DNA from: Sphyrna mokarran
Taxonomy: Eukaryota
Length of the DNA: 64,000 nucleotides
Direction of reading: 5' to 3'
Assembly (NCBI GenBank): GCA_024679065.1
Contig: JAGIQG010000008.1
Location: 50,096,001 to 50,160,000, forward strand
Of this stretch, positions 14,213-61,670 are shown one piece after another. A program made the translations under genes and the position numbers. Every line of letters begins with the position of its first letter. The first letter of the stretch is position 1. The notes under the pieces are model-generated. The model was not told the origin of the DNA. It saw only the letters and a list, made by a program, of their open reading frames with translations, and made no database searches.

Positions 14213-17200
14213 CCATAGAAACTGTAGAAAATTTACAGCTCAGAAACAGGCCTTTTGGCCCTTCTTGTCTGAGGAATCATTTTTGCCCAGTCTCACTGAC
14301 CTGCACTTGGACCACATCTCTCCATACCCCTCTCATCTATGTACCTGTCCAAGTTTTCCTTAAATGTTAAAAATGACTCTGCATACACCGCTTTATCCAG
14401 CAGCTCATTCACACTCCCACCACTCTCTGTGTAAAGAAGCCCCCCCAATATTCCCTTTAAACTTTTCTCTTTTCACCCTTAATCCATGCCCTTTGGTTTT
14501 TTCCTCCCCTAGCCTCAGTGGAAAAAGCCTGCTTGCATTCACTCTGTATCCATCAAAATCTTATACACCGCTATGAAATCTCCCCTCGTTCTTCTACGCT
14601 CCAGGGAATAAAGTCCTGAATAAAGTTCAATCTCTCTCTGTAACTCAGCTTCTCAAGTCCCGGCAACATCCTTATGAACCTTCTCTGCACTCTTTCAATC
14701 TTATTTACATCCTTCCTGTAACTAGGTGACCAAAACTGTACACAATACTCTAAATTCGACTTTACCATAGCCTTATACAACCTTACCATAACATTCTTAC
14801 TTTTATACTCGATACTCCAGTTTATAAAGTTTACCAAAAGCATCTTTGTGACCCTGTCCACCTGTGAAGTCATTTTTAGGGAATTCTGTACCTGTATTCC
14901 CAGATCTCTCTGTTCATCTGCATTCTTCAGAGTTCTACCATTTATCTGATACATTCTACTTTGGTTTGTCCTTCCAAAATGCAATACCTCGCATTTGTCT
15001 GCATTAAATTCCATTTGCCATTTTCCAACCCATTTTTCTAGTTGGTCCAAATCAAACAAAGTACAAAGAACAAAGAACAAAATAGCACGGGAAACAGGCC
15101 CTTCGGCCCAACGAGCCCGCACCGCCACCCCGATGTTCCCATCTCTACCTGCGATCCCTGTCCATGTTTATAGATCTATGGATTAAAAAACAAATTTGAG
15201 ACAATTTAGGAAGAATTTGTTTTGCCAATTAGCCTAAAAGCACATCTTTGGGATGTGGGAGGAAACCGGAGCTCCCGGAGAAAACCCACGCAAGCACGGG
15301 GAGAATGCGCAAACTCCCACAGACACACGCCCAAATCCATGTATCTGCACAGCACAGCAATAGTCACTGAGCTGTCGTGTTGCCCATCAGATGGTCCAGG
15401 TCAAGCATACACTAACAACGTGAAACAGTAGGATACTCTCGAAAAAGTTCCAAGAGCAGCCCTCTCATGACCCATCGCGTGTATGCCCCTCGTTAGACAA
15501 GGTGGACCAAAGCACCTGTAGGATAAAAACAACTACATCAATATCATCATCTATTTACACACTTCCCAGGGACTCCCAAGGCTCATGATCCCTATTTTAA
15601 ATCAGTTTTCTATACCCCTCCATTCCCATTCTGTTCATGTGCCCATCTAAGTATTTCTTAAATAACTCCAGAGTACCTGCCTCCACCACTTTACTTGGCA
15701 GCGCATTCCATACCCCCACCACCCTCTGTGTGAAAAAACTTCCTCTAGCATCCAAATTATACCTTACCCCCCTCACCCTAAGCCCGTGACCCCTCGTGCT
15801 ATTCGAGTCCATCCTAGGAAAAAGCTTAACCCTGTTTACTCTATCAATGCCCTTCAAAATCTTGTACACCTCTATCAGATCTCCTCTAAGTCTATGTCTT
15901 TCTAAGGAAAACAGTCCCAATTTGCCTAATATCTCCTCATAACTCAGACCTTCCATACCAGGCAGCATCCTGGTAAACCTCCTCTGCACTCTCTCCAGAG
16001 TCTCCACATCCTTCCAGTAGTAAGGCGATCAGAACTGGACGCAGTATTCCAAATGAGGTCTAACCAGCGTTTTATACAACTGCAACATTAAAGGCCAGCT
16101 CTTGTACTCTATACCCCTTCCTATAAAGGCTAACATGCTATATGCTTTCTTCACAACCTTCTCCACTTGCTCTGCCACCTTCAGAGACTTGTTCACCTTC
16201 ACCCCCTGGTCCCTCTGCATCTCTATACTCTTAATAGGCCTACCCTTTATCATATACCTCCCCTCTACATTCTTTCTCCCGAAATGCATCACCTCACATT
16301 TATCAGGATTGGATTCCATCTGCCATCTATCTACCCAAGCTACCAGCCTATCTATGTCCTGCTGCATCTCCTGACAATGCTCCCACTATCTGCAAGTCCA
16401 GTCATCTTTGTATCATCTGCAAACTTGCTGATCATTCCACTTACTCCCTCTTCCAAGTCATTTATATATATTACAAATGGAAGAGGTCCCAGCACCGAGC
16501 CCTGCGGTACACCACTAGTGACCGACCTCCAGCTAGAGCAACACCCTTCCACTATTACTCTCTGTCTCCTATTACCAAGCCAGTTACTTATCCATCTAGC
16601 TACCTGTCCTTGTATCCCATTTGCCTTGACCTTCTCGACTAACCTCCCATGAGGGACTTTGTCAAACGCCTTACTAAAATCCAAATAGACAACATCAACG
16701 GCTCGCCCTTCGTCCACTGATTTCGTCACCTCCTCAAAAAATTCTACCAGATTTGTAAGGCACGACCTCCCCTTAACAAATCCATGCTGCGTATCCCTAA
16801 TCAGATCGCAACGCTCTAAGTGCCTATACATCCTATCTCTAAGAATCCCCTCCAACAGCTTCCCTACCACTGATGTCAAACTCACCGGCCTATAATTTTC
16901 AGGGTTATCCCTACTACCCTTTTTAAATAACGATACAACATTAGCTATTCTCCAGTCCTCTGGGACCTCACCTGTGTCCAAGGAAGAGACAAAGATTTGC
17001 GTCAGAGGCCCAGCAATTTCACCTCGCACCTCCCTAAGCAGTCTGGGATAAATGCTATCAGACCCAGGAGAGTTATCAGTTTTAATGCTACCTAGGAGCT
17101 CTAACACTTCTTCCCTCGGTATGGATATTTCCCTCAACTGGTCCACAGCTCCCTCAGAGACAAGAGCTGTCAACAAGCCCCTCTCCTTCGTGAATACCGA

Positions 17201-17270
17201 CGCAAAGTATTCATTCAGGATCTCTGCCATTCCCTCGGGCTCTAATCCTTCTGAAAGCTTTGAAAACCTA
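14213..17270 (-). mobile_element. CR1 LINE split by a nested CR1 (pieces 14213-15053 and 17244-17270)
   Basis: ORF 14571-15128 (WQMEFNADKCEVLHFG, LEYCVQFWSP). GGTCCAAATC resumes as AATCCTTCTGAAAGCTTTGAAAACC after the insertion. Confidence 0.88.
15054..17243 (-). mobile_element. Young CR1 LINE, subfamily A, with long V-SINE-containing 3' UTR
   Basis: RT ORFs 16352-17230 (FADDTK), 16029-16367 and 15597-16007; ~540-bp 3' UTR; (ACAAAGA)n tail; AATC duplicated at 15050-15053 and 17244-17247. Confidence 0.96.
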
Positions 17271-17319
17271 TATTATTTTAAATGTTCTGGATGAATTTGA
17301 TAACATTGCTACACACATA

Positions 17320-21374: not shown

Positions 21375-22095
21375 TAATGTACAGAATAGACTTTGGAATA
21401 GACTAGCACAAGAATGATAAGAGCGGTCATGGGGAATATGTTTCCATTAGTAAGTAAGACTAGGATCTGAGGACACAGCCTCAGAATAAAGAGACGATCT
21501 TTTAAAACCAAGATGGGGAAGAATTTCTTCAACCAAAGCATGCTGAATCTGTGGAATTCATTGCCATAGAACACTGTGGTAGCCAGGTCATCCAATATAT
21601 TTAAGACAAAGATAGACAGGTTCTTGATTTGTAAGGAGATCAAAGGTTATAGGGAAAAGGTGGAGAACAAAGAACAAAGTACAAATCAGCATGGGAAACA
21701 GGCCCTTTGGCCCATGTCGCCACCCCGATGTTCCCACCTCTACCTGTGATCCCTGTCTATGTTTATAGATTTATGGATTGAAACCAAATTTAAGACAATT
21801 TAGGGAGAATTTGTTCTGCCAATTAGCCTAAGAGCACATTTTTGGGATGTGGGAGGAAACCAGAGGACCCAAAGAAAACCCACGCAAGCATGGGGAGAAT
21901 GCGCAAACTCCCACAGACACAGCCCAAATCCATGTATCTGCACAGCACAGCGGTAGTCACTGAGCTGTCGTGTTGCCCATCAAATGGTCAACTGTGGTTG
22001 AGAAACTTATCAGCCAAGATAGAATGGTGGAGCAGATGTAATGAGCTACATGGTCTAATTCTGCTCCTATATGTTATAGTCTTATGGTCTTAGCA
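21375..22095 (+). mobile_element. CR1 3' fragment split by an insertion at 21666-21990
   Basis: RI*GHSLRIK..FFNQSMLNLWNSLP remnant; tail resumes GTTGAGAAACTTATCAGCC and ends in (TCTTATGG)-like repeats. Confidence 0.85.
21666..21990 (-). mobile_element. 3'-UTR-only copy of CR1 subfamily A (V-SINE-like unit)
   Basis: Aligns by eye with 15058-15396, including the tail and V-domain. Confidence 0.92.
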
Positions 22096-23489: not shown

Positions 23490-24495
23490 GATTTTAGGTA
23501 TCCAGATCACCAACAACCTGTCCTGACCCCCCCCCCCATGATGACACTATAATTAAGAAAGCCAACCAATGCCTCTACTTTCTCAGAAAACTAAGGAAAT
23601 TTGGCATGTCAGGTAAGACTCTCACCAACTTTTATAGACGCACTGTTAGTGTTCTCTTGCGTAATAGTAATCTAAAGGCACACTCATCGACTCTTGACAC
23701 AAACAGCGCTGGACGCCATGCATCTAATGCAAAGTCTTTAATTACTTGCACACAAGGAGAACCTCTATGGGCAACACGGAATGACCAGAACAGTTCTGAG
23801 GTTACAGAGGAACAACTCAGCAGTAATAATCAATTACAGCAAATTAACCTGGATTGCAGTGTTTCTGGAACAAGGTTTTAAATATACTCATTTATCCTGC
23901 ATATGTCAGTGTTGGCCTGACTGAACGCCATGTTTGGTTAACAATAATTTTCCATTACTTGACAGTTTTTTTTGACAATTATGAAATTTCAATTTCACAA
24001 TTGTTGTAACCTAACTTCCGCAGCATCATCGAAAGCATTCTTTCTGGTTGTATCACAGCTTGGTATGGCTCTTGCTCTGACCAAGACCGCAAGGAACTAT
24101 ACAAAAGGTCATGAATGTAGCCCAATCCATCACGCAAACCAGCATCCCATCTATTGACTGTCTACACTTCCTGCTGCCTTGGAAAGCAGCCAGCATAATT
24201 AAGGACCCCAAGCACTCTGGACATTATTGTTCCATCTTCTTCCATCGGGAAAAAGATACAAAAGTCTGAGGTCATGTAACAACTGATTCAAGAACAGCTT
24301 CTTCCCTGCTGCTGTCAAACGTTTGAAAGGACTTACCTTTCATTAAGTTGATCTTTCTCTACATTCTGGCTATAACACTATATTCTGCAATCTCTCGTTT
24401 CCTTCTCTATGAACGGTATGCTTTGTCTGTGTAGCGCAGCAAACAATATTTTTCAATGTATGTTAATTCTTGTGACAATAATAAATCAAATCAAA
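23490..24495 (+). mobile_element. Rex1/Babar-type LINE 3' part, split by a solo LTR
   Basis: LYFLRKLRKFGMSGKTLTNFYR...ESILSGCITAWYG; tail TGTGACAATAATAAATCAAATCAAA. Confidence 0.85.
23644..24022 (-). mobile_element. Solo LTR (TG...CA, 379 bp)
   Basis: Starts TG at 23644, ends CA at 24022, flanked by GCAC (23640-23643) and GCAT (24023-24026). Removing it restores the Rex1 frame. ATTAAA on the - strand near 23740. Confidence 0.75.
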
Positions 24496-25334
24496 CCAAA
24501 GGTCACAGACTTAGTTTAATGGGATGTGATTGGTTGAAGGAAATATGTTTAAACTATTAGGAAACATTAAATCGGAGGGACGGAGGTTTTCAAGAGCCAT
24601 TGGATCCAGGATTAATGAGATTGCCAAAATCGCGTGCCTTGTCTCATCTTTTAAATATAGACCAGCTTGCGACCGAACTGAGGAGCTCTCCAGAGACAGG
24701 AAGGCCTGGTCCATTTGAACCTTTGATGATTTCCCAAAGATTTGTCTGGATACCCTTTTCATGTAAGAGCCTGTATTGTATCTACTAATGATGTTCTTAG
24801 TTTCTCCACAATGTATTCAACCTTCCATGTCCTTATCCATTCATTCGTCCTGCCCAAGTCCTGCTGCAGCCTTTTTACATCATCCTTGCCGCTTACTTGA
24901 CCAAATTTGATCATATTGCAGCCAAGTCTTCATAATGCTTATTAGTTCAAACCCATTAATTCTACCTTTGCCATTAATTTGTCTCTTTCTTTATGAATGC
25001 TCCACTGGCAATTGAAGATACATGCACTGACTTTACTCATGTGGGGTCATTAATCTTCTTGTCACATTGCACTCCATTCAAATGCTGGCTGTCCACTACA
25101 ATCATTTACATTAGCAGCATTAATTTTGAGTGTTGCTTGCATTTGAAGCTTTGGACAAAGAAATGTAAAGCTGGATATTTTTTTAAAGGCTGGGATATAT
25201 TAGCATTTAGAAGGATTTGGATATCCTTGTACATAAATCACAAAATTAGCATGCAGGTACAACAAAATTTGGAAAACAATGGATGTCATAGCCTTTATTG
25301 CAAATGTGATCCCAGTGTCCTTTTTTAGAAAGTT

Positions 25335-30139: not shown

Positions 30140-30700
30140 AACATTTGATTTTCTTTTGATTTATTATTCTCACATGTATTGGCATGCAGTGAAAAGTATT
30201 ATTTCTTGCAGACTAAGCATACCATTCATAGAGAAGGAAAGGAAAAGGTGCGGAATGTAGTGTTACAATCATAGTTTGGGTGTAGAGGAAGATCAACTTA
30301 ATATAAGATAAGTCCATTCAAAAGTCTGATGGCAGCAAGGGAGAAACTGCCTTGAGTCGATTGGTGCATGGCCTCAGACTTTTGAATCATTTTCGTGGTG
30401 GAAGAGAGTGTGTTGGATGTCCGTAGAGTCTTTGATTATGCTGGCTGCTTTTCCGAGGCTATGGGATGTCAACTGATGGAAAGCTGGTTTGAGTGATGGA
30501 TACTTTGTTTCCGATCCTTTGTAGTTTCTTGCTGTCTTGGTCAGAGCAGGAGCCACACCAAGTTGTGATACATGCAAAAAGGATGCTTCCTATGGTGCAT
30601 CCGTAAAAGTTGGTGAGAGTCAGAGCAGATATGGCAAATATCCTTTGGCTCTTGAGAAAGTAGAAGTGTTGGTGGGCTTTCTTAACTATAGCGTCATAAG
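30140..30700 (-). mobile_element. Rex1/Babar LINE 3' part
   Basis: TTTGATTT tail; reverse-complement match to 23490-24495. Confidence 0.85.
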
Positions 30701-33900: not shown

Positions 33901-33924
33901 TAGGAAAAACTCACAACCTATTAT

Positions 33925-34205
33925 TTTAGTTTTTAGTTTATTTATTAGTGTCACAAATAGGCTTACATTAATTCTGCAATGAAAATCCCAAGTCGCTACA
34001 CTCTGACACCTGTTTGGGTACACTGAGAGAGAATTTAGCATGGCTAACGCACCTAACCAGCATATCTTTTGGACAGTGGGAGGAAACCGCAGCATCCAGA
34101 GGAAACCCACACAGACACAGGCAGTGGCCCAAGCTGGGAATTGAAGCTGGGTCCCTGGCACTGTGAAGCAGCAGTGCTAACCACTGTGCCATTGTACTGC
34201 CCAAC
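33925..34205 (-). mobile_element. V-SINE variant with non-CR1 (Rex1-like) tail
   Basis: HE1-like head and V-domain; tail TTCATTGCAG..TTAATGTAAGCCTATTTGTGACACTAATAAATAAAC. Confidence 0.88.
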
Positions 34206-35104
34206 AACTCAGCGGGGGGACAGTTGTGCCTCCCACTGCACAACTTCTGACATCTTTAAAAAGGTACACATACAAGAGAGTGGCATCATTGGCAGTACTC
34301 TAGCCTATTCTAGGCAGCAAGCTCTCAGTGAGTAACGAGTGTGCTGCCAGTCCAACAAGGAAGACTTGGGCATGGATCTGGTTCTGGGTAACAAGGGAGA
34401 ACAACTGAATGGCTGGAAAGGCAGACATCCGGAAAGTAATGAACATAATAAAAAAAATTTGGAATAAAAATAGTTGAGGGAGGTGAAAACAGTTTGCTTT
34501 GGAAAATAGGCAGGTTGAGTGGGCTCAGAAGGGGCACTATGTCCAGATTAATGACTTGGGAAAAATTGTGACAGACTAACCAGCAGGTCAACCTCTCAAC
34601 TTCAACTTTAACTCAGGAGCTGAACTGTTGCTGCGAGGAGAATTTTAAGTAGTTGTGAGCTCACTTTAATTTAAAACTTATTATCTAAATGTAATTCATT
34701 TTCAAATGCTTTCAGCAGAAAAAGAGAATTATTAAAGAGTGTGGAGAAGCAAGCAAGGAGGATTAGAATCAGTAGCTCATATGGAGTAAAATAATACTTG
34801 CATGCTTGAACAGAATGACTTATTCCTGCAGTGTAATACTTTATGAGACTTCCCATCGCAGGGGTCTGATGTTCATTTTGAAAACCTGTGTTCACTTGTT
34901 ATTAGTATTTTACCAGAAATGTTCTGTTACTTTGGGAACACTCATCACTCTAATGTGCTTTAGTGTGTAAAATATTTCTCTGATTGCACAGCAAGAGAAT
35001 TTGGAGTTACACCTAATTCACGCTTGACATATCCGTTCTTGAGATGAAGCAATTATATTAAATTGATCAGCCCTTGTACAAAGACAAATTTCTCGGGCTG
35101 TAAA

Positions 35105-35390
35105 GTTTAACGTTTATTCATTAGTACAAATAGGCTTACATTAACACTGCAATGAAGTTACTGTGAAATTCTCATAGTTGCCACAATCTGGCACCTATTC
35201 AGGTCAATGCATTTAACTGGCATGTCTTTCAGAATATGGGAGAAAACCAGAGCAGTTGGAGGAAACCCACACAGACACTTAGAGGACATGTACAGTCCAC
35301 ACTGATAGTGACCCAAGCCGGGAATCAAACCTGGAGTCCCTGGTGCTGTGAAGCAGCAGTGCCAACCACTGTGCCACCGTGCCACTCCAG
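35105..35390 (-). mobile_element. V-SINE variant, same family as 33925-34205
   Basis: Same head, V-domain and tail. Confidence 0.88.
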
Positions 35391-36699: not shown

Positions 36700-37185
36700 C
36701 CTTTGATTTGATTTGATCTATTATTGTTACATGTATTAGTATAAAGTGTGAAGTATTGTCTCTTGCACACAGACAAAGCATACCATTCATAGAGTATGTA
36801 GGAGAAAAGGAAAGGAGAGGGTGCAGGATGTAGTGTTTCAGTCAAAGCCAGAGTGTAGAGAAAGAGCAACTTAACATAAAGTAGGTCAATTCAAAAGTCT
36901 GATGGTAGCAGGGAAGCAGCTCCTCTTCAGCCTATTGGTATGTGATCTCAAACTTTTGTATCTTTTTCCCGACACAAGAAGTTGGAAGAGAAAATGTCCA
37001 GGGTATGAGAGGTCCTTAATTATGCTGACTGCTTTTCTGAAGCAGCAAGAAGTGTAGAAGGAATCAATGGATGGAAAGCTGGTTTGCGTGTTGGACAGGC
37101 TACCTTTACCACCCTTTGTAGTTTCTTGCAGTCTTGGTCAGAGCATGAGCCAAACCACACTGTGATTATCTAGAAAGGTGCTTCC
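36700..37185 (-). mobile_element. Rex1/Babar LINE 3' part
   Basis: (TTTGA)n tail; matches the other Rex1 copies. Confidence 0.87.
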
Positions 37186-39058: not shown

Positions 39059-41189
39059 ACCTTTTCAAAAGTAAATGCCCCGGTCATGTCTGCTGCTAAA
39101 TTGTAGCAGAGTCTCCATCACAGAACCTGTGGGAATTTATACATCATACAATATAAATCTATGAAAATCTATATCCAGTATCCCATGGGACTTATCTTGC
39201 TTCATTCATGGAGCCATTCTTTGGCATTATATTTGGTTCTTGGTAGTGGCTGCTGTGTAAGGTGGTGAAATGTTGCTGCTAATATTAATCCTACCCTTGA
39301 GGAGGAATACACCATGCCTCCTCCCCTACCCTCCACTACGATATGCAGAAGTGGTGTCCCTGGTCCAGCATCAAGAAGGGATCGGCACGGATCAGCAACT
39401 AGAGGTTGAACTGGGGGAGAGGGGGGATAGGAGAAGGATGGGATAAGTGTCTGTATGGGAAAGGGATATCAGCATAGTATAGACTGTAAGGGCAGAAGAG
39501 TAATTCAATGCAGTAGGAAGGATAAGGAATTGTAAATAATTTAGCAATCTGATTTTGACAAGAGACTTATCTACAATCATGCACAATTTCTGCGAGAAAT
39601 TAGGAAACTTCCCACAGATTTGTCATCATGGCTTCTTTAGCGGCACTTCTCAAACCTGTCAGAAGGACAAGGGTAGAAGGTACATGGAAGCACTATCAGA
39701 TCCATTTTTCTGGGTCAAAACGCTGAAACATGTAACAACATGTGGGCTAACCTTATCTATACCAAATGCAGCTTTTCAGGAAAAATGTTGACCGCCACTG
39801 AGGGTCAGTTGAGATAGCCAATACATGCCAGCAATGCCCACTTCCCAAGATTGAATTTTTAACAATCTTACCCAAGTCACAATGATGCTGCACATGGACA
39901 CACACATACTGAGCTTGTAAATAGATGTTAATAAATTAAGGATCTGGAATTCAAAAGGTACTGTAAAAGGACTATAAGGTTTGAATAAACATGCAAATAA
40001 AGCATCCAGCACAGTTGCTTACAGTTCTATACATTGCAAAAATGCTAAATGTTTACCTCTGTGACCCCATGCTATTGCAATGCCCTGACAACCACACTCT
40101 TCTCCGTGCAGTCTCGGTGCATCAGTAACGAGATAGAAAAAAAAAGTTTCTCCCAAAACGCAAGGCAGAATTTCTCATCTTTTATTCCATTACTGAGCAG
40201 TGTCACAAACCATTCGCTCAATTTGTATTTTCTTTGACAGTACAACCTGTCATGTGCTGTCAGTGGAACCCAGTTAGAGATTACTGTAATTTGAAAGTTC
40301 ACTGAGAACACAAAGGGGAAGTGAACCAATTCACAGTCTGTGCTGTAGGCGAAAAGAACTGCAAAATTCATTTTTTTTTTACATATACTAGGTTGTGTGG
40401 AGAATTTATCTCACTGCAGTTCTAGTGAGCTGTGACTGAGGTTTTGTTTTTACTAAGTATATTGTACTGGCAATCAATCTAATTATAAGTCAGAACGATT
40501 AAAACAGATATTGGATAGATAGAACATGTTTAACCAAATCCCGCAGCTTTGGGAAAACAGTAGATTTTAATTGTTCAAAAAAGGGAGTGATTTCAAAACA
40601 GTAAGATTCTAAAATGGGCACATAACTAATTACTTCCCAAAGAGTCAATTAAATGACTTATTGAGTAGACAAGACAGCAAGAAATCTTCATGTGTCGTGC
40701 AGGGAATAAGGAGCCAATTAGAGCTCTTTTCTGGTTACTGATATGTCTTCAGGCACTATTATCTCGCTCCAGTCTTTCAACACTTCGGAGAAATAGAGAG
40801 CAGGATTCTCCACTCACACCAGAGGTGGGAATCGGGGCACAACATTTGGCATGATGGCAGAAACTGTTTCCTGTGAGCAGGAAATTAGTTTGTAACATCA
40901 ACATTCTGGGGGCTACCATTGACCAGAACTGAATTTTACCAGCCATTTCAATACTGTGGCTACAAGAGCAGGTCAAGAGGCTGGGAACTTTGTGGCAAGT
41001 AACTCACCTCCAGACTCCCCAAAGCTTGTCCACCACCTACAGGGCACAAGTCAGAAGTTTGATGGAATACTCTCCATTTGCCTGGATGAATGCAGCTCCA
41101 ACAATAAGAAGCTCAACACCATCCAGGATAAAGCAAACTGCTTGATTTGTGTCCCATCCACAAATATTCACTCCCTCCACCATCAATGA

Positions 41190-41612
41190 TTTGATTTGAT
41201 TTATTATTGTCACATGTACTAATATACAGTAAAAAGTATTGTTTCTTGCATGCTATACAAACAAAGCTTACTGTTCATAAAGAAGGAAAGGAGAGAGTGC
41301 AGAATGTACTGTCACAGTCATTGCTGGGGTGGAGACAAAAATCAACTTAGCACAAGGTAGATCCATTCCAAAGTTTGATGGCAGGAGGGAAGAAGCTGTT
41401 CTTGAATTGGTTTGTACGTGATCTTAGGCTTTTCTATGAAAGAAGATAGAAGAGAAAATGTCCGGGGTGCATGGGGTCTTTAATTATGCTGGCTGCTTTT
41501 TTGAGGCAGCATGACAGAGTCAATGGATGGAAGGCTGGTTTGCATGATGCTACATTCATGACCCTTTGGTTTTGGGCAGAGCAGGAGCCATACCAAGCTG
41601 TGCTACTACCAA
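41190..41612 (-). mobile_element. Rex1/Babar LINE 3' part
   Basis: (TTTGA)n tail; AATGA on both flanks. Confidence 0.87.
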
Positions 41613-41783
41613 AATGAATGAACATTGGCAACTGTGTGCACCATCTTAGGATCACAGAATCATACAGTACCCATTGAATCTGCACTGAAACACGAAAAGC
41701 ACCTGATCTCCCACCTATTCCCATTTACCAGCACTTGGCCCAATAGAATGCACTGCAGTAACTCAGTGAAGCTGCTTTGACAG

Positions 41784-42122
41784 ATGTTGAGAGGTATTGA
41801 GCGAGTGGATTCTCAGAGGTTTTTTTTCCAGGGCTGAAATGGCTGCCACAAGAGGACACAGATTTAGGATGCTGGGGAGTAGGTACAGAAGAGATGTCGG
41901 GGGTAAGTTTTTTGCTCAAAGGGTGCTGGGTGTGTGGAATCGGCTGCCGGCAGTGGTAGTGGAGGTGGATTTGATAGGGTCTTTTGAGAGACTTTTGAAT
42001 AAGTACATGGGATTTAGTAAGACAGAGGTTATAGATAGGCTTTGTAGGTAGAGACATCTTCGGTACAACTTGTGGGCTGAAGGGGCTGTTTGTGCTGTAG
42101 TTTTTCTATGTTTTATGTTCCA
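41784..42122 (+). mobile_element. CR1 3' end, same subfamily as 23080-23479
   Basis: AEMAATRGHRFR..FFAQRVLGVWNRLP; CR1 tail. Confidence 0.92.
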
Positions 42123-42321
42123 TCTCAGCACATTCCAAACCACTGACCATTGCCACCTAGAAGGACAAGGGTAGCAGACACAAAATGTTCAGTTAAATAT
42201 TCATCTAACCTGTGACCCAGGAAGCTAATCCAGAATGTTTGAACCAGGTACGCAGAGAGCTCTCATGACTCTTACATCTTGATTCACTTACAGTGTTCAA
42301 TAGAGTGGAATTATTTCCTCT

Positions 42322-43235
42322 AGCAGAGTACAAGAGCTGGCCTTTAATGTTGCAGTTGTATAAAACGCTGGTTAGATCTCATTTGGAATACTGCGTCCAG
42401 TTCTGGTCGCCTTACTATCGGAATGATGTGGAGACTCTGGAGAGAGTGCAGAGGAGGTTTACCAGGATGCTGCCTGGTATGGAAGGTCTGAGTTACGAGG
42501 AGAGATTAGGCAAATTGGGACTGTTTTCCTTAGAAAGATGTAGACTTAGATGAGATCTGATAGAGGTGTACAAGAGAGTGGTGGGGGTATGGAATGCGCT
42601 GCCAAGTAAAGTGGTGGAGGCAGGTACTCTGGAGTTATTTAAGAAATACTTAAATGGGCTCATGAACAGAATGGGAATGGAGGGGTATAGAAAACGGATT
42701 TAAAATAGGGGTCATGAGCCTTGGGAGTCCCTAGGAAGTGTGTAAATAGATGATGATATTGATGTACTTGTTTTTATCCTACAGGTGCTTTGGTCCACCT
42801 TGTTGTCTAATGAGGGGCAAAAACGCGATGGGTCGTGAGAGGGCTGTTCTTGGATCTTTTTTGAGAGTATCCTACTGCTTCACGTTGTTAGTGTATGCTT
42901 GACCTGGACCATCTGGTGGGCAACACGACAGCTCAGTGACTATTGCTGTGCTGTGCAGATACATGGATTTGGGCCTGTGTCTGTGGGAGTTTGCGCATTC
43001 TCCCCGTGCTTGCGTGGGTTTTCTCCGGGTGCTCCGGTTTCCTCCCCCATCCCAAAGATGTGCTCTTAGGCTAATTGGCAAAACAAATTCTCCCTAAATT
43101 GTCTCAAATTTGGTTTTAATCCATAGATCTATAAACATGGACAGGGATCGCGGGTAGAGGTGGGAACATCGGGGTGGCAGCGTGGGCTCGTTGGGCCGAA
43201 AGGCCTGTTTCCCGTGCTGTTTTGTTCTTTGTTCG
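42322..43235 (+). mobile_element. CR1 subfamily A copy with internal deletion and long 3' UTR
   Basis: Near-identical reverse complement of 15054-16110; deletion at ~42574 (TACAAG|AGAGTGGTGG). Confidence 0.95.
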
Positions 43236-43399: not shown

Positions 43400-44460
43400 T
43401 TATCATAGATCGGGTACAAAACAGAAGGAAGCAATATGGTCCATCAAGTTCCATATACCTCTCTGAAAGAGTATTCCAGCTAATTCTGTTCTTCTATCCT
43501 TTCAATACAGAGAATCATGAATCCCTACACTGCAGAAGGAGATCATTTGGCCCACCTAAGCCCTATCCTGGTAATCCCACATATTTATCTCACTAATCCC
43601 TCTAACCTACGCATGTCAGAACAGTAAGGGGCAATTTACCATGGCCGTCCACCCAACCTGCACATCTTCAGACTGTGGCAGGAAACTGGAGCACCTAGAA
43701 AAACCCACACAGACACGGGCAAAATGTACAAACTCCACACAGACAGTGACCCAAAGTTGGAATAGAACCCAAATCTCTGGAGTTGTGAGGCAGCAGTTCT
43801 AATCACTGTTCCATCGTGCCTCCCTCTGGAATCTGAAATATTTCTGCTTCTTATACACACCGATTTCCCTTCTGGAAACTCAGTTCAAATCTGCTTCCGC
43901 CATCTTTACGGGTATTCTGGATCATAACCGCTTGGATTGTAAAAACGTTTTTCTTCATATTACCTTTGCTCCTTAAGCCTTAATTCTTAAGTGTTCTCAA
44001 GCCTTCCTACATAGGAACAATTTCTCTCTATCCACTCTACGTAGACCCATCCTAATTTTGAACACCTCTATCAAATCTCCTCTTAATCTGCTCTTCAAAG
44101 AAAAAAATCCCAGCTTCAGTAATCTATTCAAATGAAGACCTCATCCTTGGGACCTTTCTAGTAAATCTTTGATGCAATTTTTCCAATACCTTCATATATT
44201 TCTGAAAGTACTGTGTTGTATTAGGACACAACATTCTAGCTGTAGACAAGCATTTTTTAATGCTTCATAATTGCTTTCTTGCATTTGTGCTCAATGCCTC
44301 TATCTATAAAGCCCAGAATCCTATATGCATTTCCAACTACTTTCCAACCTGTTCTGTCCTACAGTTTTTAATGGTTTTGTGCACATATGGCTCTTGATCT
44401 TATTGTTCATATCCTCCCTTTAAAATTATATTCTTTAGTTCATATTCCCTCTCCTCAGGT
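43400..44460 (-). mobile_element. Old CR1, decayed, with HE1 insertion
   Basis: CACCTCTATCAAATCTCCTCTTAA (LRGDLIEV on -) and neighbouring CR1 motifs. Confidence 0.7.
43505..43825 (-). mobile_element. HE1-type V-SINE
   Basis: Head, V-domain and CR1-type tail on the - strand. Confidence 0.9.
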
Positions 44461-45434: not shown

Positions 45435-47055
45435 TTAAGAGCAACACAGCACGGGAAACAGGCCCTTCGGCCCAACGAGCCCGCGCCGCCGTCATAACTA
45501 TATAGTAGCAAATCCATTATCCTATTTTATTATTCCTATATAATAATATATATATTATTCCTAATATGGAAAATTCTCACCATAGGGACAATTTGTTTCC
45601 CAATCAGCCTAAGAGCGAATTTTTGGGTTGTGGGAGGAAACCGAGTGCCAGAGAAAACCCACGCAACCACAGGGAGAACGCGCAAACTCCCGCAGACACC
45701 GGCCCAATTCCAAGTGTCTGCACAGCCACATCGATAGTCTCTGAGCTGTCATGGTGCCCTTCAGATGGTCCACATAAAGCACTCATTTACGACATGAGGT
45801 ACCAGGCAACCCATGAATCAACATCCAAGAGCTGTACCCGCACCACCTGCCGAATGCATGCTCAATGTTGGTCAAGTATGGACCGAATTACCTGTGGAAA
45901 AAAGCCGTAGTTAAACAGTCCTAATATATCCCTCTATCTGCATACCGCTCATGTGGCTGTCCAAGAGACCCTTAAACAGCCCCAGCGTGCCTGCTCCCAC
46001 CACCTTACTCGGCAGTGCATTCCACACCCCCACTACCCTTTGTGTGAAAAACTGCCCTCTAATATTCGTCTATACATAGCCCCCCTCACCCTATGGCCAT
46101 GACCCCTCGTCCTATCCATTTCTAAGGTGGAAAAAGTTTACCTCCATTTACTCTATCTATACCCCTTATAATCTTATACACCTCTATGAGATCCCCTCTA
46201 AGCCGACGTCTTTCAAGGGAAAACAACCCCAGTCTATCTAATCGTTCCTCATAAGACAGTCCTTCCATACCAGGCAGCATCCTGGTAAACCTCCTCTGCA
46301 CTCTCTCCAAGGACTCCACATCCTTCCGATAGTACGGCGACCAGAACTGGACGCAGTATTCCAAGTGAGGCCTAACCAAAGTTCTATACAACTGCAACAT
46401 CAAACTCCTACTCTTGTATTCTATACCCTTTTCTATGAAAGCTAACATACTATACGCCTTCTTTATCACCTTCTCCACCTGTGAGGACACCTTCAGAGAC
46501 TTGTGAACCTGCACCCCCAAGTCTCTCTGCGTCTCTATGCTCCGTATAGTTTTACCTTTTATCCTATAACTCTCTTCTACATTTTTCCGGCCAAAATGCA
46601 TCACCTCGCATTTATCCGGATTAAATTCCATTTGCCATCTATCTGCCCAGTCTACCAACCTGTCTATGTCCTGTTGTATTGCCTGACACTGCTCTTCTGT
46701 ACCCGCCAATCCAAGCATCTTGGTGTCATCAGCAAATTTGCTGATCTCACCACCTACCCCTACTTCCAAGTCGTTTATGTAGACCACAAATAGAAGAGGA
46801 CCTAGTACTGAGCCTTGTGGCACTCCACTAGTGACAGGCTTCCAGCCGGAAAAAGAGCCTTCCACTACTACCCTCTGTCTCCTCCTCCCGAGCCAGTTCT
46901 CGACCCATCTACATACCCGACCCTGTATCCCATGCGCCTTCACCTTCTCTATCAGTCTACCATGAGGAACCTTGTCAAACGCCTTACTGAAATCCATGTA
47001 GACAACATCAACAGCCTGTCCTTCATCAACTGTTTTTGTCACTTCTTCAAAAGCA
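45435..47055 (-). mobile_element. Young CR1 LINE, subfamily B, with long V-SINE-containing 3' UTR
   Basis: ORF 46122-47096 (DFSKAFDKVPHGRL, GVPQGSVLGP, FADDTK); terminal stop at 45911-45913; ~480-bp 3' UTR. Confidence 0.96.
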
Positions 47056-47147: not shown

Positions 47148-47430
47148 GGAGTGGCACTGTGGTGCTGTAGATAGCTCTGCTGCCTCATAGCACTAGGGTT
47201 CGATTCCCGGCTTGTGTCATTGTGTTGAGTCTGCACGTTCTCCCTGTGTCTACGTGGCTCCCCTCCAGGTGCTCCGGTTTCTTCCAACAGTCCGAAAAAC
47301 CTGCTGGTGCAGTGGTCATGCTAAATTCTCCACATGTACTTTATCAGGCACTAGTGGCACCTCGGGGATTTTCAAAGTAACTTCATTGTAATACGAATGT
47401 AAGCCTATCTGTGACCCATAAATAGATTTT
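47148..47430 (+). mobile_element. V-SINE variant with Rex1-like tail
   Basis: B-box GGTTCGATTCC, V-domain, tail GTAACTTCATTG..GTAAGCCTATCTGTGAC. Confidence 0.85.
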
Positions 47431-50969: not shown

Positions 50970-51150
50970 ATTAGAATCATAGAATCCCATCAGTGCAGAA
51001 AGAGGCCATTCGATTCACCGAGCCTGAACTGACAACAATTCAACCCAGGGCCTATCCCTGTAACCTCACATACTTACCCTACTAGTCCCCCTGACACGGA
51101 AGCAATTTAGCATGACCAATCAACCTAACCTGCTCATCTTTGTGACTATA
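50970..51150 (-). mobile_element. HE1 V-SINE 3' half
   Basis: TAGAATCATAGAATCCC..CAACCTAACCTGC on +. Confidence 0.8.
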
Positions 51151-51554
51151 GGTAAAACAGTACAGGGTCAAATCTCACAAAAATATGCAATAAATTGGCA
51201 ACAGAACTGAGATGAAATAAAGAGAATTTGTCACTTTACACACTGAGCTGTTAAGATCCGCAATGCAGTGTCTGAAAGAGTGGTGTAACGTTCAGAAGAA
51301 AATTGGTTGCTTGCTTAAAGAGGAGAACATTACAGGGTTAGGGACAAAGAGGGTGGGAATGGAACAATTTAGATGGCTCCCTTCTGAGTTTCACAGCTCA
51401 GTTGTTTCTGGCTGATTGAGGTAAAAATAATTCTGGAATCTAAATATGGTTGACTTGAGGGGGTGTGATGAGAGGTTGCTACTGTAAATTTGTGCTGGAA
51501 GGATAAGTTAGAGTTGGCTGAATCATTTTCAGTTGTACCCAAGCTTGTGATGGT

Positions 51555-51725: not shown

Positions 51726-53217
51726 TGATAGTTCTATTCTTTTCCCCATCTTGGGTAATTCCTGGAGGCAACGGGCCAATGATCTGAAATCAGCCTTGAG
51801 AAAAGGGGGTTACAGCAATTGGATTAACTCTCTGACTAATTCCTTTTACTTTTTTTTAGGAAGTTTTTAATCTTGGCTCAGTATCTGATGCAGTTCGGGT
51901 AGGGATCAAAGAGTGGAGTTTTGTGTTGGAGAATGCACCCCATTCCATGAACAACTAAGTGTGTTAAACACTAGCTGATGTGAGCCACAAATCGTAGACC
52001 CTGGTTCTCATTTGTTGTTTTATTAGTTAATATTCATAGGCTGTGCTTTCTCTTCTCCATTCATCAAAGTCAATGACATGAGATGTCCACAGCTACAGGA
52101 CAGGGAACATATGCAGCTGTCCTGCACAGATGACCCAGACTCCATCTGTTTTCTTCCAGATTCAGTCCTGTGCTCAACTCCCCTACTTCTGGAATCTTAA
52201 CTCCTGACTGAGTAGATTATCAAAGCTCTTTAAAGTGCTGAAAGGCTTTGGTGATGTGGATATCAGCAGCTACAATAGAGTACCAGTACACAAAACCGCC
52301 AAGTACCAGGAAAGATTAGGGATTAGAGATACAAAAAAACCTTCTACGAAACTCTGTGCAATATATCTCAGAGTACAGCCAAGTCATCTTAAAAGGAAGC
52401 TTGAAGAATATTTGGTCAACAATTTGATTGAAATTTTAAGTGTAGATCATCAGATATGTTGTGGACATTGTGGCTTCAGCTCTGTTGGGATCAAGGAAAG
52501 GTTATTTATTGAAGACAACCAGACAGGGTTGAATAATACCATCTGTAGTGTTAAATTCCATAGCCTGAGCTCTTGCTCAATTACATTCAGGTCAAGGAGA
52601 AATTTTAGAGTTTTGTCATTTTGACATTATTGCCTTTAAAGTTTTATCTGTGCTTATCCAGCTGCCTCAGGAGATTAAATATATGGATATATGGCTTGAT
52701 TCACCATTCAAGTCACATACAGTTTGCGAGAAGAAGTAGAATAATGGACTAGTGACGCCTTTTCATTCCTTACATTGTATTGTTAATAAATGAAAAGATA
52801 AACAAAGGATATAGAATGTAGATTAGCTATAAGATCAGATTTGCCCGACATCTTTACTAATTTATGGTGATCCTTTAGTTCACTTGTTAGGTTACAGCAG
52901 CAGTGACTTTGATTCCATTCTGCAGTGACCATTTTCTCTCTCTCCTAGTTAAAACTTCACTGATGATTCTTTCTTTGTCAGTCTATACTGTTAGCATGTG
53001 TCCACCTTCCCTGCTCACATCTGCACGAAGGTAAGAGCAAACCAGTGAGTTTGTTCCCACTAGCACCTTCTCAAAAACAATGGAATGTCTGCTCTGTTAT
53101 GCATCTCGCTACATGTACCAACATAATCAAGTCAATTTAACTTTGATTAGGGATTGAATTTGGGACTCTTCTGGCCTGTATGTCTTGGTACTCACTGCAT
53201 AATACATGTCAGAGATA

Positions 53218-53375
53218 CACGGGTTAGGTTGATTGGCCGTACTAAATTGCCCCTAGTGTCAGGGGGACTGGCAGGGTAAATACGTGGAGTTGCAGGATTG
53301 GGACCTAGATGGAATTGTTGTTAGTATGGGCTTGATGGGCCGAAATGACCTCCCACTGCACTGTAGGGATTATAT
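53218..53375 (+). mobile_element. HE1 V-SINE 3' half
   Basis: GGTTAGGTTGATTGGCC..GATGGGCCGAAATGACCTCC..CACTGTAGGGATT. Confidence 0.8.
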
Positions 53376-55409
53376 GATTTACAGTAAGCTAGGAGGGAAT
53401 TGGCAAGTTTCTGTGACTTCCGTGAAATTGACAGTATAAAGAAACACACGAGAGCATAAAATACAGAATTCTGCTTATGAGATTTCAGCTGCAAAAGAAT
53501 AGCAGTGTGCTGTAACTTGAATTGTTCCTTGTGCACACTACTATTACACGATTAGCTTTCAGTGATGTGAACCCTCTGTCCGTAAATTGTTTGTCTCTAT
53601 GTTTACACAGCTTTTACTCAGACTCAATTATAGGCAAAGGATTCTTTCAGAAAATAGGAGGGATCAAGAACTGTAACCGAAACAATGAAGCCGGCATCTT
53701 TGACTAAGGCTTAATTATATATTCATAAAGCATTGAGAGTAGCTGGTTACTGCAACTGACATGGAGTAATCTGATTTTGCAGTTCATCTAAGGGCCTGTA
53801 TGTCTTTGAAGTCTAAACTAATTGTAAATGGATGTCATTTTCACCCTGGAAAAAGGAGCTATTGTGATTTAAAGGGAAGTTGTTTTCACTTGGCGTTATT
53901 AGATTCAGACACATCTCAAATTGAAACATAGCCGCACTTACAGAAAAGCAATGAATGAGTGAAGGGGGACATTACATTGCTTTAAGACATTTTTCATTAA
54001 AATATCTTATGGGATGTACAATGTGTTTTGCAGCATCAAGTAGAATTAGTTAATACCCATAGGTCCTGTGCTAGTTTGTTAAAGGTAGATTCAACTTTAC
54101 TTTTGCTCATGAACATCTTATCCTACAGCAAATATAGATCAGCCCTAATTTTAGCAAGCAGTGAATTGTTTAGCAAAATGTTTCTGGAATGGCCAATCCC
54201 ATTATGAACCATAAAATTCATTTACTGTCTACTCTGAATATTAATCACTTACAGCATTCCAAGTCATTTACTGACAAAATTCCTCAGTAAAACCATTCCT
54301 CATGTAAAAATTAAGGTGGTTTCCTTCGGAAATTATTCGTCACAAAGAAATGGCCCTTCAGTCAAACATCTTTATTTTGTAATGTATTTTATAATCTGCT
54401 GAAGGTTAATTGGTCTTTCAACTATTCCCTGAGGAACACAAAGTAACCTTACAGTCAGAAGCAACTACTTATATTGAAGTTGAGGACAGCGGAGAATGCA
54501 TCACCATGAATCCATTAATTGGCATCAAGTTAGACTAGCAAAGCTGTTTTTCAAAACTTAGGTAGAATTTTAAAGATGCCCAAAAATTGAGACTTGGCAA
54601 GAAATGGCATTTAAGTGAACACTGATAGATGAAAGAGTGGGTTTCCCACACAAAGCCCAGCATCCCTCCCTCCCCTACTCCCAACATATACCTCAGAACC
54701 TGCCTTTGAGGGATTGTAAAGTTCTGCGCTTAAGCAATGGCCCATAAACTCCAGGTTCCAGCCATCATACGAGGGTTTGGGGGCTGGATAGTTGCAGGGG
54801 AAGGGGGAGGACATAAAAGATCTGTTGTGGAACAATCCTCCATCCCAGAACCCAGAATACCCCAGGGTAAGGATTCCATGGCAATTACCCAATAAGTTTA
54901 TTGAACAAATCCCCAGCACTGGTAACCAGCTGAAATTATGACTTAAATCACAGGCTTTGGATGGCTCTGATTGTCTTCCAGCAATAATTGCCCAGAAAAA
55001 TTTAGACTACTTTTAGGTTCTAGCTAACTAAAGCACTGACCCACCACCTTGACTGCCCATGTGACGTCCCTCTCTCAGCCCCAGATGCTCCATATGGCCC
55101 CTGACTACTCACCCTACCCGATTTAAACTACCACCGTAACCTCCAAATAGGGCCCCCTCCCCCTTCTCGAACCTCCACAGGATCCCCTGCATATTACACA
55201 CATTCCCAACCTATTAGTCCTGAAAGCGCCTGCAGGATTCCCCCATGCCTCCAACCCTCACAGAATGCCTGCTCCCCCAAAAGGTTTCCACTCACCCTCC
55301 ACAGAAACTTCCCCTCCACCTGCACCTGCCACAAACTCCTCCTGTCCCACTGAATCCTCCTCAGACCCCTGTGATCCCTCCATGGTCTCCCAGACATCAC
55401 CTCATCTGT

Positions 55410-56703
55410 CTGAGGCATTCAAGTCAGATGACATTGACCTATACAAGAAAGCCAGATACCATCTAAGGAGAGCCACCAAAGATGCCAAAAGACAATACCA
55501 GACCAAGCTAGAGTCCCAGACTAACCACACCAACCACTGCTGACTATGGTAATATCTGCAACACATAACAGGATACAAGATGAAGGCATATAAAATCAGC
55601 TCCAACATGCCCTCCCTGATGAGCTCATTGCATTCTACACCTATTTTGAGCAAGAGGTCAGTGAGAGCATGCCCTCCACCCTGGAAGCCCTGGATGAACC
55701 GGCATCTAGAGTCACCATTGCAGATATCAGAGCAGCTTTCTTGAAGGTCAACCCATGGAAAGCAACTGGCCCGGATGGGGGTACTCGGACGTGCACTCTG
55801 ATCCTGTGTGGATCAGCTAGCGGAGGTATTCACAGACATCTTCAACCTCTCTTTATAATAATCTGACATCCCTACCTGCTTCAAGAAGATGACCATCATC
55901 CTGATATCTAAGAAAAACCAAACAGTGTGCCTTAATGTCTATCAACCAGTAGCTATCCATCATTATGAAGTGCTTCTAAAGGTTAGTCATGGCATCAATT
56001 AATTCCAGCCTCCTGGACTACGTGGATCCATTACAGTTTGGCTAGTGCCACAATAGATCCACAGCAAATGCCATTTCCCTGGCCCTGGCCCAGTGTAATT
56101 AAGGACTCCATACACCCTGGACATTCTTTCTTCTATCTTCTTCCTTCAGAAAAAGATAAAAAAGTTTCTCAGAAGACTAAGGAAATTTGGCATGTCAACT
56201 ATGACTCTCACTAATTTTTACAGAAGCACCATAGAAAGCATTCTCTCTAGTTGTATCACAGCTTGGTATGGCTCCTGCTTTGCCCAAGGAACTACAAAAG
56301 ATTGTGAATGTAGCCCAATTCATCACACAAACCAGCCACCCATTCACTAACTCTTTCTACACTTTCCGCTGCCTCAGCAAAGCGGTCAGCGTAATTAAGG
56401 ACCCCATGCACCCTGGACATTCTCTCTTCTACCTTCTTCCTTCAGAAAATGATATAAAAGTCTGAGGTCATATATCAACAGACTCAGAAACAACTTCTGC
56501 CCTGCTGTGTCAGACTTTTGAATGGATTAACCTAGCATTAAGTTGATTTTCCTCTTCACCCTAGCTTATAACCGGAATACTACATTCTGCATTCTCTCAT
56601 TTCTTTGCCTATGAAGTGTATGTTTTATCTGTATAGAGCGCAAGAAACAATACCTTTCATTGTATGTTAATACATGTGACTATAATAAATCAATTCAAAT
56701 CAA
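55410..56703 (+). mobile_element. Rex1/Babar LINE with internal deletion
   Basis: LYKKARYHLRRATKDAKRQYQTKLE, KVNPWKATGPDG, CFKKMTIILI, LDPLQF-like motif, FLRRLRKFGM; AATAAATCAATTCAAATC tail. Confidence 0.92.
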
Positions 56704-60794: not shown

Positions 60795-61670
60795 CGACAT
60801 AGGAGCAGGAGTAGGCCACTTGGCCCCTCAAGCCTACCCTACTATTCCATAACATCATGACTGATCTGATTGTAACCTCAACTCCACATTCCTATCTACC
60901 CCATATAACCTTTCACCCACTTGTTAATCAAGACCCTGTCTAGCTCTCCCTTAAAATATTCAAAGACTCTGCTTCCACTGCTTTTTGAGGAAGTGAACTC
61001 CAAAGACTCACAGCCCTCTGAGTGAAAAGATTCTCTCTCTTAAGCAAACCGTCCCTACTTTTAATAAATTACCTCTTGTTCTAGATTTTCCGACAAGACA
61101 TTTGTCAATATCCCTCATGTTTTTAAAGGTTTCAAATCAAGTTGCCTTTTACTCTTCTGAACTCTAGTGGATACAAACCCACTCTTTCCAACCTTTCCCC
61201 ATAAGATGTCCAAAGATGTGGAGGTTAGATCAATTGGCCATGTTAAATTGACCCTAGTGTCAGGGATTAATGGGGTAAATGTGTGGTGTTATGTGAATAG
61301 GTCTGGGTGAGATTGTGGTCAGTGCAGATTTGATGGGCTGAATGGCCTCCTTCTGCACTGTAGGGATTCTATGATTCTAAGACAACAATCCATTCCTGGA
61401 ATTAATCCAGTAAACCTTCTCTGAACTGCTTCTAACATTTACATCTTTCCTTAAATAAGGAGACCAATACTGTACACAATATTGCATTTGGAATAGCCAG
61501 TGCCCTGTAAAGAATGTCCTCTCTATATTTGTAATCAATCCCTTTCACAATAAATGATAACATTCCATGCACTTTCCTAATCACTTGTTTTACCTGCATA
61601 TTAACCCTCTGTAATTCACACACTAGCACATCTAGATCCCTCCGCACTTCAGGGCTCTCTCACCATTTTG
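60795..61670 (-). mobile_element. Old CR1 with HE1 3' half inserted (61207-61380, +)
   Basis: RDLDVLV..QVKQVIRKVHGML remnant; CATAGGAGCAGGAGTAGGCC tail; TAAGA on both sides of the SINE piece. Confidence 0.85.

What the first reader, a model, noticed from the sequence alone, without database searches (positions are those of the whole stretch)
42701..43235. CR1 LINEs carrying a degenerate V-SINE in their 3' UTR: an amplifying LINE-SINE chimera
Seen: after the ORF2 stop (TAA 42701-42703) the element runs ~530 bp, compared with roughly 100 bp in the other CR1s here. The UTR contains a SINE-head-like block GGGCAACACGACAGCTCAGTG (42918-42938, resembling the HE1 start but with no clear B-box), the V-domain (~42977-43085) and then the normal CR1 tail. 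The same architecture occurs at 15054-15596 (-), 21666-21990 (-) and, in a clearly diverged subfamily, 45435-45910 (-). It is therefore part of the element, not a local SINE insertion. Known: HE1 V-SINEs borrow the 3' tail of the HER1/CR1 LINE, and the V-domain's function is unresolved. Inference: an autonomous LINE captured a V-SINE and kept the domain through subfamily divergence, or LINE UTRs are a source of the V-domain. I cannot tell whether this has been described.
Basis: partly seen in the sequence, partly recalled or inferred. Interest (0 to 1): 0.75.

Follow-up and report, generated by a model that had tools for sequence, protein, structure and literature searches.

The report
LINE that kept a SINE's fold
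A self-copying mobile element, probably from a shark or ray, carries a captured piece of its own small parasite element whose promoter is destroyed but whose folded RNA shape appears kept, which offers a direct way to test why this ancient parasite sequence is so conserved.

Summary
Real. Three CR1-like LINE copies (42.3-43.2 kb, 15.1-17.2 kb, diverged 45.4-47.1 kb) join ORF2 to a 474-541 nt 3' UTR holding a V-SINE head and V domain; eight other CR1 UTRs measure about 66-174 nt where measurable. The fourth locus (21.7-22.0 kb) lacks ORF2, so the junction count is 3 of 4. The block has one origin (100/100; shared B-box deletion), and one copy moved as a single insertion. 'Degenerate' is misleading: between subfamilies head plus V is 83% identical, against 61% for upstream UTR and 53% at synonymous sites. 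The Pol III promoter is dead, but the head hairpin keeps and gains base pairs relative to free V-SINEs (P 0.0003 and 0.019). Best reading: an autonomous CR1 captured a V-SINE, lost its promoter and kept its RNA fold as a cis element. A structure test between the subfamilies alone was not significant (P 0.06-0.21), so module swapping remains a rival. LINE-as-source is unlikely. A 2016 paper states that such domains had not been found in LINEs; nine searches found no description. Repbase, Dfam and the rest of the genome were not available.

The parts
42325..42703 (+). 5'-truncated ORF2 end of copy C42 (subfamily 1), with an internal deletion of about 135 nt near 42573-42575; stop TAA 42701-42703
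   Evidence: 96% and 95% to C15 on the two sides of the gap; tblastn; deletion size
42704..42905 (+). Upstream part of the 3' UTR, origin unknown; homologous between the two subfamilies; holds an acceptor-like block near 42755-42785
   Evidence: local score 83 against shuffle mean 20.6, 0 of 2000 shuffles as high; no match to short CR1 tails; acceptor-like pattern
42906..42917 (+). Conserved 12-nt lead-in before the head; predicted to pair with the 3' part of the V domain in subfamily 1
   Evidence: 11/12 identical C15 vs C45; folds
42918..42968 (+). V-SINE-derived tRNA-type head: A-box remnant 42929-42939 (2 mismatches), hairpin H1 42928-42954, B box/T arm deleted between 42968 and 42969
   Evidence: alignment A1; box scan; pairing tests
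42969..43100 (+). V domain (core about 42977-43062, extension to about 43095)
   Evidence: by-eye match to published V_HCD; 96/119 to free V-SINE majority; 75/90 and 29/37 between subfamilies
43101..43177 (+). Spacer, not conserved between subfamilies
   Evidence: C15 vs C45 local score 16, 1578 of 2000 shuffles as high
43178..43234 (+). CR1-type 3' stem-loop and short T-rich terminal repeats
   Evidence: nhmmer against a profile of 9 short CR1 ends, E 6e-10; fold; 39/42 between subfamilies
15054..17243 (-). Copy C15 (subfamily 1): broken ORF2 with RT domain, stop 15597-15599, 541-nt UTR; one insertion nested in an older CR1 with a 4-nt duplication at 17244-17247 and 15050-15053
45437..47052 (-). 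Copy C45 (subfamily 2): RT frame, stop 45911-45913, about 474-nt UTR with the same head, B-box deletion, V domain and tail
21664..21990 (-). Copy C21: head + V + spacer + tail only, no ORF2; antisense inside the 3' UTR of an older short-UTR CR1, with a 3-nt flanking repeat

Best explanation
An autonomous CR1-type LINE lineage acquired, once, a sense-oriented V-SINE (tRNA-type head plus V domain) in its 3' UTR, upstream of a working CR1 tail, before it split into at least two subfamilies. SHOWN: the architecture, its single origin, retrotransposition of ORF2 plus long UTR as one unit, coding constraint on ORF2 between subfamilies, loss of the Pol III promoter (B box deleted, A box changed at its first and last consensus positions), and higher conservation of the roughly 195-nt head+V block than of its flanks. 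INFERRED: capture came from a template switch during target-primed reverse transcription or from a SINE insertion into a source element (not separable here); the LINE's Pol II transcript carries the block; the promoter was lost because an internal Pol III unit would make a competing SINE RNA from every copy; and the block is kept for its RNA fold (a multi-stem domain in which the head pairs with the V domain). I commit to a cis role in the LINE RNA, most likely RNA stability or ORF2p loading next to the tail stem-loop. Capture and retention about 0.85; RNA-fold function about 0.55.
For: Three ORF2-joined loci. C15 lies between the two halves of an older CR1 frame with a 4-nt duplication; the left flank scores as that frame (6 of 20000 random 9-mers as high). 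ORF2 C15 vs C45, 307 codons: identity 0.87/0.88/0.64 by codon position, 44/83 at four-fold sites; the two group at 99/99 among 6 long CR1 copies over 1.1 kb. The four LINE-borne blocks form one side of a 100/100 branch against 6 free V-SINEs and share 36 states absent from all six. Block 160/192 vs upstream UTR 82/134, Fisher P 1e-5; vs spacer P 7e-10. B-box best match has 4-5 mismatches in 4 of 4 LINE-borne copies, 0-2 in 6 of 6 free copies. Folds predicted separately from SINE and LINE copies share 24 of 33 SINE pairs. Hairpin H1: 14 differences from the SINE majority leave 11 of 11 pairs in subfamily 1 (null mean 6.1, P 0.0003) and 9 of 11 in subfamily 2 (P 0.019); the two A-box-breaking changes turn U.U and G.G mismatches into C-G and A-U. 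On A1, 18 cells with changes on both sides, 1 of 500 shuffles as high.
Against: Subfamily 1 vs subfamily 2 alone: pair retention not significant (P 0.059-0.082 with random positions, 0.11-0.21 with fixed positions), and differences are not depleted in stems (16 in 104 paired columns, 15 in 85 unpaired). C45 block folds no better than shuffles (z -0.22; C15 z -2.39). The second helix is defined on the LINE copies themselves. The free SINEs in the window are old, of two tail types, and need not be the donor, so some compensations may predate capture; the printed anuran V-SINE heads share at least two of the LINE states. In one search two of five measures were not above shuffles (116 and 429 of 500) and relatedness inflates the others. 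A 251-nt ORF2 tree did not resolve the three long-UTR copies (28% of bootstraps). Only 4 copies, one from subfamily 2; no outside copy was found. No expression or activity data. A-box, B-box and splice-site consensus patterns are recalled, not from a call.
Confidence: 0.6

Rival explanations
1. Neutral passenger plus module swap: the SINE was captured once and rides along without a role; head+V looks conserved because subfamily 2 took that segment from subfamily 1 later than their ORF2s split, and its AT-rich spacer then turned over quickly.
For: Structure test between subfamilies not significant and no stem/loop contrast; C45 spacer is AT-rich; module exchange at conserved domains is a published hypothesis (PMC5804259 passages).
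Against: Needs a crossover before the head and a complete spacer replacement between two conserved blocks; does not explain why promoter-breaking changes come with partner changes that restore pairing.
Confidence: 0.17
2. The block is kept as a DNA-level regulatory element (factor binding site, enhancer, or antisense promoter) or for splicing/3' processing of the LINE transcript rather than for its fold.
For: Loops are as conserved as stems between subfamilies; an acceptor-like site sits upstream in 3 of 3 ORF2-joined copies; regulatory roles for SINE conserved domains are proposed in PMC4824008 and PMC5786205.
Against: Double changes that keep pairing in H1 and between head and V domain are expected of RNA structure, not of a DNA site; the acceptor-like pattern occurs 26 times in 128 kb of both strands.
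Confidence: 0.1
3. The block plus tail is itself a mobile SINE-like unit without a B box (C21 being a free copy), made by processing of the LINE RNA or by another promoter, and it exchanges with the LINE.
For: C21 begins within 1-2 nt of the start of the conserved block and just before the predicted closing stem, and has SINE size; it shows a double change that keeps one closing-stem pair.
Against: One copy only; CR1 fragments of 0.15-0.4 kb are common in the window, so ordinary 5' truncation suffices; no B box.
Confidence: 0.1
4. LINE 3' UTRs are the ancestral source of the V domain, and V-SINEs took it from such a LINE.
For: RTE LINE UTRs did supply SINE bodies in other cases (PMC5786205); the tree has no root.
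Against: The LINE block includes a tRNA-type head with a broken A box and the flanks of a deleted B box, which must come from a Pol III unit; ten other CR1 3' ends here lack it; V-SINEs occur in cnidarians and bivalves.
Confidence: 0.03

Closest known systems
HE1 V-SINE / HER1 LINE pair of sharks and rays (listed in PMC3747384 table; Ogiwara papers not held)
   Same: tRNA-type head, V domain and CR1-type tail in the same order; LINE and SINE share a tail type.
   Different: Sequence flow is reversed: head and V domain lie inside the autonomous LINE, behind ORF2, with the Pol III promoter destroyed. Sequence identity to HE1/HER1 themselves was not testable.
MER6/MER6A MITE with a captured V domain (PMC6887750, parts 1-2 of 5 and supplement passages)
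   Same: A V domain spread by riding in another transposon.
   Different: MER6 is a non-autonomous DNA transposon, took body and tail but not the head, and has no RNA intermediate; here the carrier is a coding retrotransposon and the head is kept and refolded.
RTE/Vingi-derived SINE bodies (Kojima 2018, PMC5786205)
   Same: Shared sequence between LINE UTRs and SINE middles.
   Different: LINE to SINE, 5' UTR, RTE and Vingi clades; that Repbase screen reports no match to conserved bodies such as V.
Vertebrate canonical CR1 (PMC13343379 passages)
   Same: RT-bearing ORF2, 3' stem-loop and short terminal repeats, heavy 5' truncation.
   Different: 3' UTR about three to eight times longer than in other CR1s of this window and carrying a SINE module; the passages seen do not discuss 3' UTRs.
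L1 chimeras with small RNAs and SINEs (PMC13174262 passages)
   Same: Fusion of LINE and other RNA by template switch or ligation.
   Different: The passages seen describe chimeric insertions and speculate on 5' UTR swaps; here the fusion is 3', heritable and present in two subfamilies.

Membership tests
CR1 LINE | ORF2 with reverse transcriptase domain | tested here: met
   Pfam RVT_1, E 1e-22 (C45) and 1e-25 (C15)
CR1 LINE | RT phylogeny places it in the CR1 clade | tested here: inconclusive
   No reference tree built. Best named relatives of the ORF2 end are hypothetical proteins of Chiloscyllium punctatum (57%) and birds (48-54%); calling these CR1 is my own knowledge
CR1 LINE | 3' stem-loop followed by short tandem repeats, no long poly(A) | tested here: met
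   nhmmer E 6e-10 to 6e-8 for 4 of 4 copies against 9 short ends; folds
CR1 LINE | Endonuclease domain, ORF1 and 5' UTR | not testable with these tools
   All copies in the window are 5'-truncated; the longest is 2.2 kb
CR1 LINE | Autonomy (ORF2 under coding constraint while linked to this UTR) | tested here: met
   Codon-position identities 0.87/0.88/0.64 between subfamilies; no intact copy here
V-SINE | V highly conserved domain | tested here: met
   By-eye match to published V_HCD; 96/119 and 89/116 to free V-SINE majority
V-SINE | tRNA-derived head with working A and B boxes | tested here: not met
   Head homologous (30/51 and 27/52) but B box deleted and A box with 2 mismatches in 4 of 4 copies; ARAGORN and Rfam find nothing in the window, free SINEs included
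V-SINE | LINE-derived 3' tail | tested here: met
V-SINE | Free-standing non-coding unit | tested here: not met
   3 of 4 copies are joined to ORF2; C21 alone is free-standing and fits 5' truncation
HE1/HER1 (named elasmobranch families) | Sequence identity to the HE1 and HER1 consensus | not testable with these tools
   Original paper not held; no HE1 sequence in the three SINE-paper supplements searched

The most novel reading that the evidence does not exclude
An autonomous LINE lineage has domesticated the folded core of its own parasite: the V-SINE head and V domain form one RNA structure that boosts retrotransposition in cis and is separable from Pol III transcription. That would be the first SINE highly conserved domain recognised under selection inside a LINE, would identify RNA-level function as the reason for V-domain conservation, and the LINE may in turn release a promoter-less SINE-like unit by processing at the base of the fold.
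Probability: 0.35. Interest if true: 0.85.

Novelty: new variant of a known kind. Interest (0 to 1): 0.64.

Why it matters
Why SINE conserved domains persist across animals is stated as unresolved (PMC4824008 abstract and discussion passage). [quoted passage not shown] This family is a counter-example. It also separates the candidates for function: the promoter is gone, the fold seems kept, and the carrier is autonomous, so a single-construct reporter can test the domain without a helper LINE. Practically, such copies would be split into CR1 plus SINE by annotation and inflate V-SINE counts. In this window the LINE-borne subfamily-1 blocks are 93-97% alike while free V-SINEs are 64-77% alike, so the LINE may be the domain's more recent vehicle here.

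Tried and rejected
Decayed first CR1 tail upstream of the head (read-through capture): rejected; best nhmmer E 0.24 and z at most 1.5 in 27 pairwise tests. Spacer as a remnant of a CR1 ORF2 end carried by the SINE: marginal (z 2.1-2.8 for 4 of 9 short ends with C15, weaker with C42; none with 3 SINE tails), not used. Structure conservation between subfamilies: not significant. tRNA and Rfam scans: nothing (five chance-level hits). Short ORF2 tree: unresolved, repeated on 1.1 kb with the 6 of 17 hits of at least 600 nt (C42 too short). Outside copies: antisense-frame protein search, none; sense-frame HMMER search, 27 hits that by their coordinates mostly cover only the V core or are long low-identity proteins, not examined further; head pattern in bacterial and archaeal genomes, 0; ORF2 scan there gave 5 loci, none with the block. 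Published elasmobranch CR1 consensus sequences: only the first 400 characters of each are held, so their 3' UTRs were unseen. One supplement file of PMC4824008 was not searched. The 'all helices' count of 6 double changes includes one that probably reflects CpG decay in the SINE majority; I rely on H1. The viral and metagenome contig collections, Repbase, Dfam and the host genome stayed unchecked.

Full report
Setting. The window is repeat-rich DNA, 42% G+C, with many CR1-like fragments and six near-complete free V-SINE copies. The best named protein relative of the ORF2 end is from the bamboo shark Chiloscyllium punctatum at 57%, ahead of bird proteins at 48-54%, so a cartilaginous fish is likely but not shown. 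The names CR1 and HE1 for these repeats rest partly on my own knowledge.

Observation. At 42701-42703 a TAA ends an ORF2 C-terminal frame and is followed by 531 nt ending in a CR1-type tail. The same UTR follows ORF2 at 15056-15596 (95% identical) and, at about 71%, at 45437-45910. Of eight other CR1 ends, seven gave UTRs of about 66-174 nt and one could not be measured. The 21.7-22.0 kb copy has no ORF2 and begins 11 nt before the head; it lies antisense inside an older short-UTR CR1 whose two halves both match other short CR1 ends. So 3 of 4 loci show the junction. The 42 kb copy also lacks about 135 nt of ORF2. The V domain matches the published V_HCD by eye (PMC6887750 supplement passages).

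It moves as one unit. C15 spans 17243-15054 and interrupts an older CR1: the 27 nt on its 5' side read as the continuation of the frame that resumes on its 3' side (6 of 20000 random 9-mers score as well), with a 4-nt duplication. Between C15 and C45, ORF2 identity by codon position is 0.87, 0.88 and 0.64, amino-acid identity 247/306, four-fold identity 44/83: both lineages were coding while they carried this UTR. They group at 99/99 among six long CR1 copies; a 251-nt tree was unresolved.

One capture. The four LINE-borne blocks sit on one side of a 100/100 branch against the six free SINEs and share 36 states absent from all six, 15 of them columns of the B-box deletion. The UTR upstream of the head is also homologous between subfamilies (0 of 2000 shuffles), so the fusion predates their split. 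Direction: the block has a tRNA-type head (30/51 and 27/52 identical to the SINE majority) with an A-box remnant and a gap where the B box was. That points from SINE to LINE. No decayed first tail was found upstream, so simple read-through into a neighbouring SINE has no support; template switch and insertion upstream of the LINE's own tail both remain possible.

Not degenerate but remodelled. Between subfamilies identity is 11/12 in the lead-in, 45/53 in the head, 75/90 in the V core, 29/37 in the V extension and 39/42 in the tail, against 82/134 upstream and a spacer no better than shuffles. The block (160/192) exceeds upstream UTR at P 1e-5. Folds predicted separately for free SINEs and LINE copies share 24 of the 33 SINE pairs: a stem joining the head's start to the V domain, head hairpin H1, and V-domain hairpins. 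In H1, taken from the SINE-only prediction and extended in register, 14 differences from the SINE majority leave 11 of 11 pairs in subfamily 1 (null mean 6.1, P 0.0003; four double changes, P 0.003) and 9 of 11 in subfamily 2 (P 0.019). Two G-C pairs become A-U in both subfamilies, and the two changes that break the A box convert U.U and G.G mismatches into C-G and A-U (A-U in 3 of 4 copies). Where the B-box arm was lost, a 9-pair stem is predicted in both subfamilies, and three differences between them keep its pairing; this stem is defined on the LINE copies, so it is only suggestive.

Limits. The direct test of selection after the subfamily split is not significant (P 0.059-0.082 and 0.11-0.21), stems are not depleted of differences, and C45 alone folds like its shuffles. 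C45 is a single decayed copy, so power is low. The donor SINE is unknown, and printed anuran V-SINE heads share some LINE states, so part of the compensation may be older than the capture. The promoter-breaking changes, however, are unlikely to have been fixed in a working Pol III SINE (inference).

Mechanism. I favour: Pol II transcript of the LINE, ORF2 translated, folded head+V domain in the 3' UTR acting in cis on RNA stability or ORF2p loading, tail stem-loop and repeats used for priming. The promoter was removed because it served only a competing SINE RNA. Steps from transcription on are inferred from general LINE biology and the pattern above; none was observed. Rivals are neutral carriage with module swap (0.17), a DNA-level or splicing role (0.10), a promoter-less SINE-like unit represented by C21 (0.10), and LINE as source (0.03).

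What is known. HE1/HER1 is the listed elasmobranch V-SINE/LINE pair (PMC3747384 table passage). A V domain captured by another transposon has a precedent in MER6 (PMC6887750, parts 1-2 of 5). LINE-to-SINE body transfer is known for RTE and Vingi (PMC5786205, parts 1-3 of 5 and section 24). PMC5804259 (passages) says such domains had not been found in LINE sequences. PMC4824008 (abstract, passages), PMC11481361, PMC7245038, PMC13174262 and PMC13343379 were seen as passages only and do not describe this arrangement in those passages. Nine full-text searches listed no paper on it. The library lacks most subscription papers, including Ogiwara 2002, and Repbase and Dfam could not be checked. Published elasmobranch CR1 consensus sequences exist but were visible only for their first 400 characters; I think it likely that the family sequence is catalogued somewhere without the SINE origin being noted (judgement). 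From recall, not from a call: mammalian L1 3' UTRs are known to pick up foreign sequence, so SINE capture as such is not unprecedented.

Verdict. A real, heritable LINE-SINE chimera; CR1-like by RT and tail, not a V-SINE by promoter or independence. New variant of a known kind; interest 0.64, higher if the fold proves functional.

Noticed in passing
window 42755-42805 (+), 15500-15545 (-), 45870-45915 (-): Branch-point-like, pyrimidine-rich, CAG|G splice-acceptor-like site shortly after the ORF2 stop in 3 of 3 ORF2-joined copies; such sites occur 26 times in 128 kb of both strands, and the block (26/39) is not clearly more conserved than the rest of the upstream UTR.
   Followed up: partly
window 21664-21990 (-): C21's 5' end coincides with the start of the conserved block and the predicted closing stem; it also shares a few states with subfamily 2, so it may be a third subfamily.
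   Followed up: partly
window 45735-45745 (-): In C45 two adjacent H1 pairs become G.A and A.G, a possible tandem sheared pair rather than a broken stem (motif knowledge recalled).
   Followed up: no
window 33920-34200 (-), 35100-35385 (-), 47150-47425 (+) versus 9100-9420 (+), 43500-43822 (-), 63298-63630 (+): Two free V-SINE types with the same head and V domain but different tails: one CR1-like, one AT-rich and not CR1-like.
   Followed up: no
window 50972-51157 (-), 53200-53400 (+), 61208-61382 (+): Three V-SINE 3' fragments that all start near the end of the V core; possibly a separate short element or a preferred truncation point.
   Followed up: no
window 14215-15053 and 17244-17272 (-); 21438-21663 and 21991-22085 (+): Both C15 and C21 are nested inside older CR1 copies; C42 lies about 200 nt after another CR1 tail (41782-42124).
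   Followed up: partly
window 41187-41620, 24036-24498, 30155-30585, 36704-37164, 56239-56702: Another repeat family of about 450 nt with five copies at 70-74% identity, not identified.
   Followed up: no
L003:81-512: A CR1-like ORF2 end (58%) with a short UTR and CR1-type tail fills most of a 547-nt contig of a bacterial isolate assembly; probably vertebrate DNA contamination. L001 and L002 also hold ORF2-like matches.
   Followed up: no
window 43014-43023 (+) and equivalents: All four LINE-borne V domains have a run of four T in the V core, terminator-like for Pol III; two of six free copies also have T runs there, so it is not diagnostic.
   Followed up: partly
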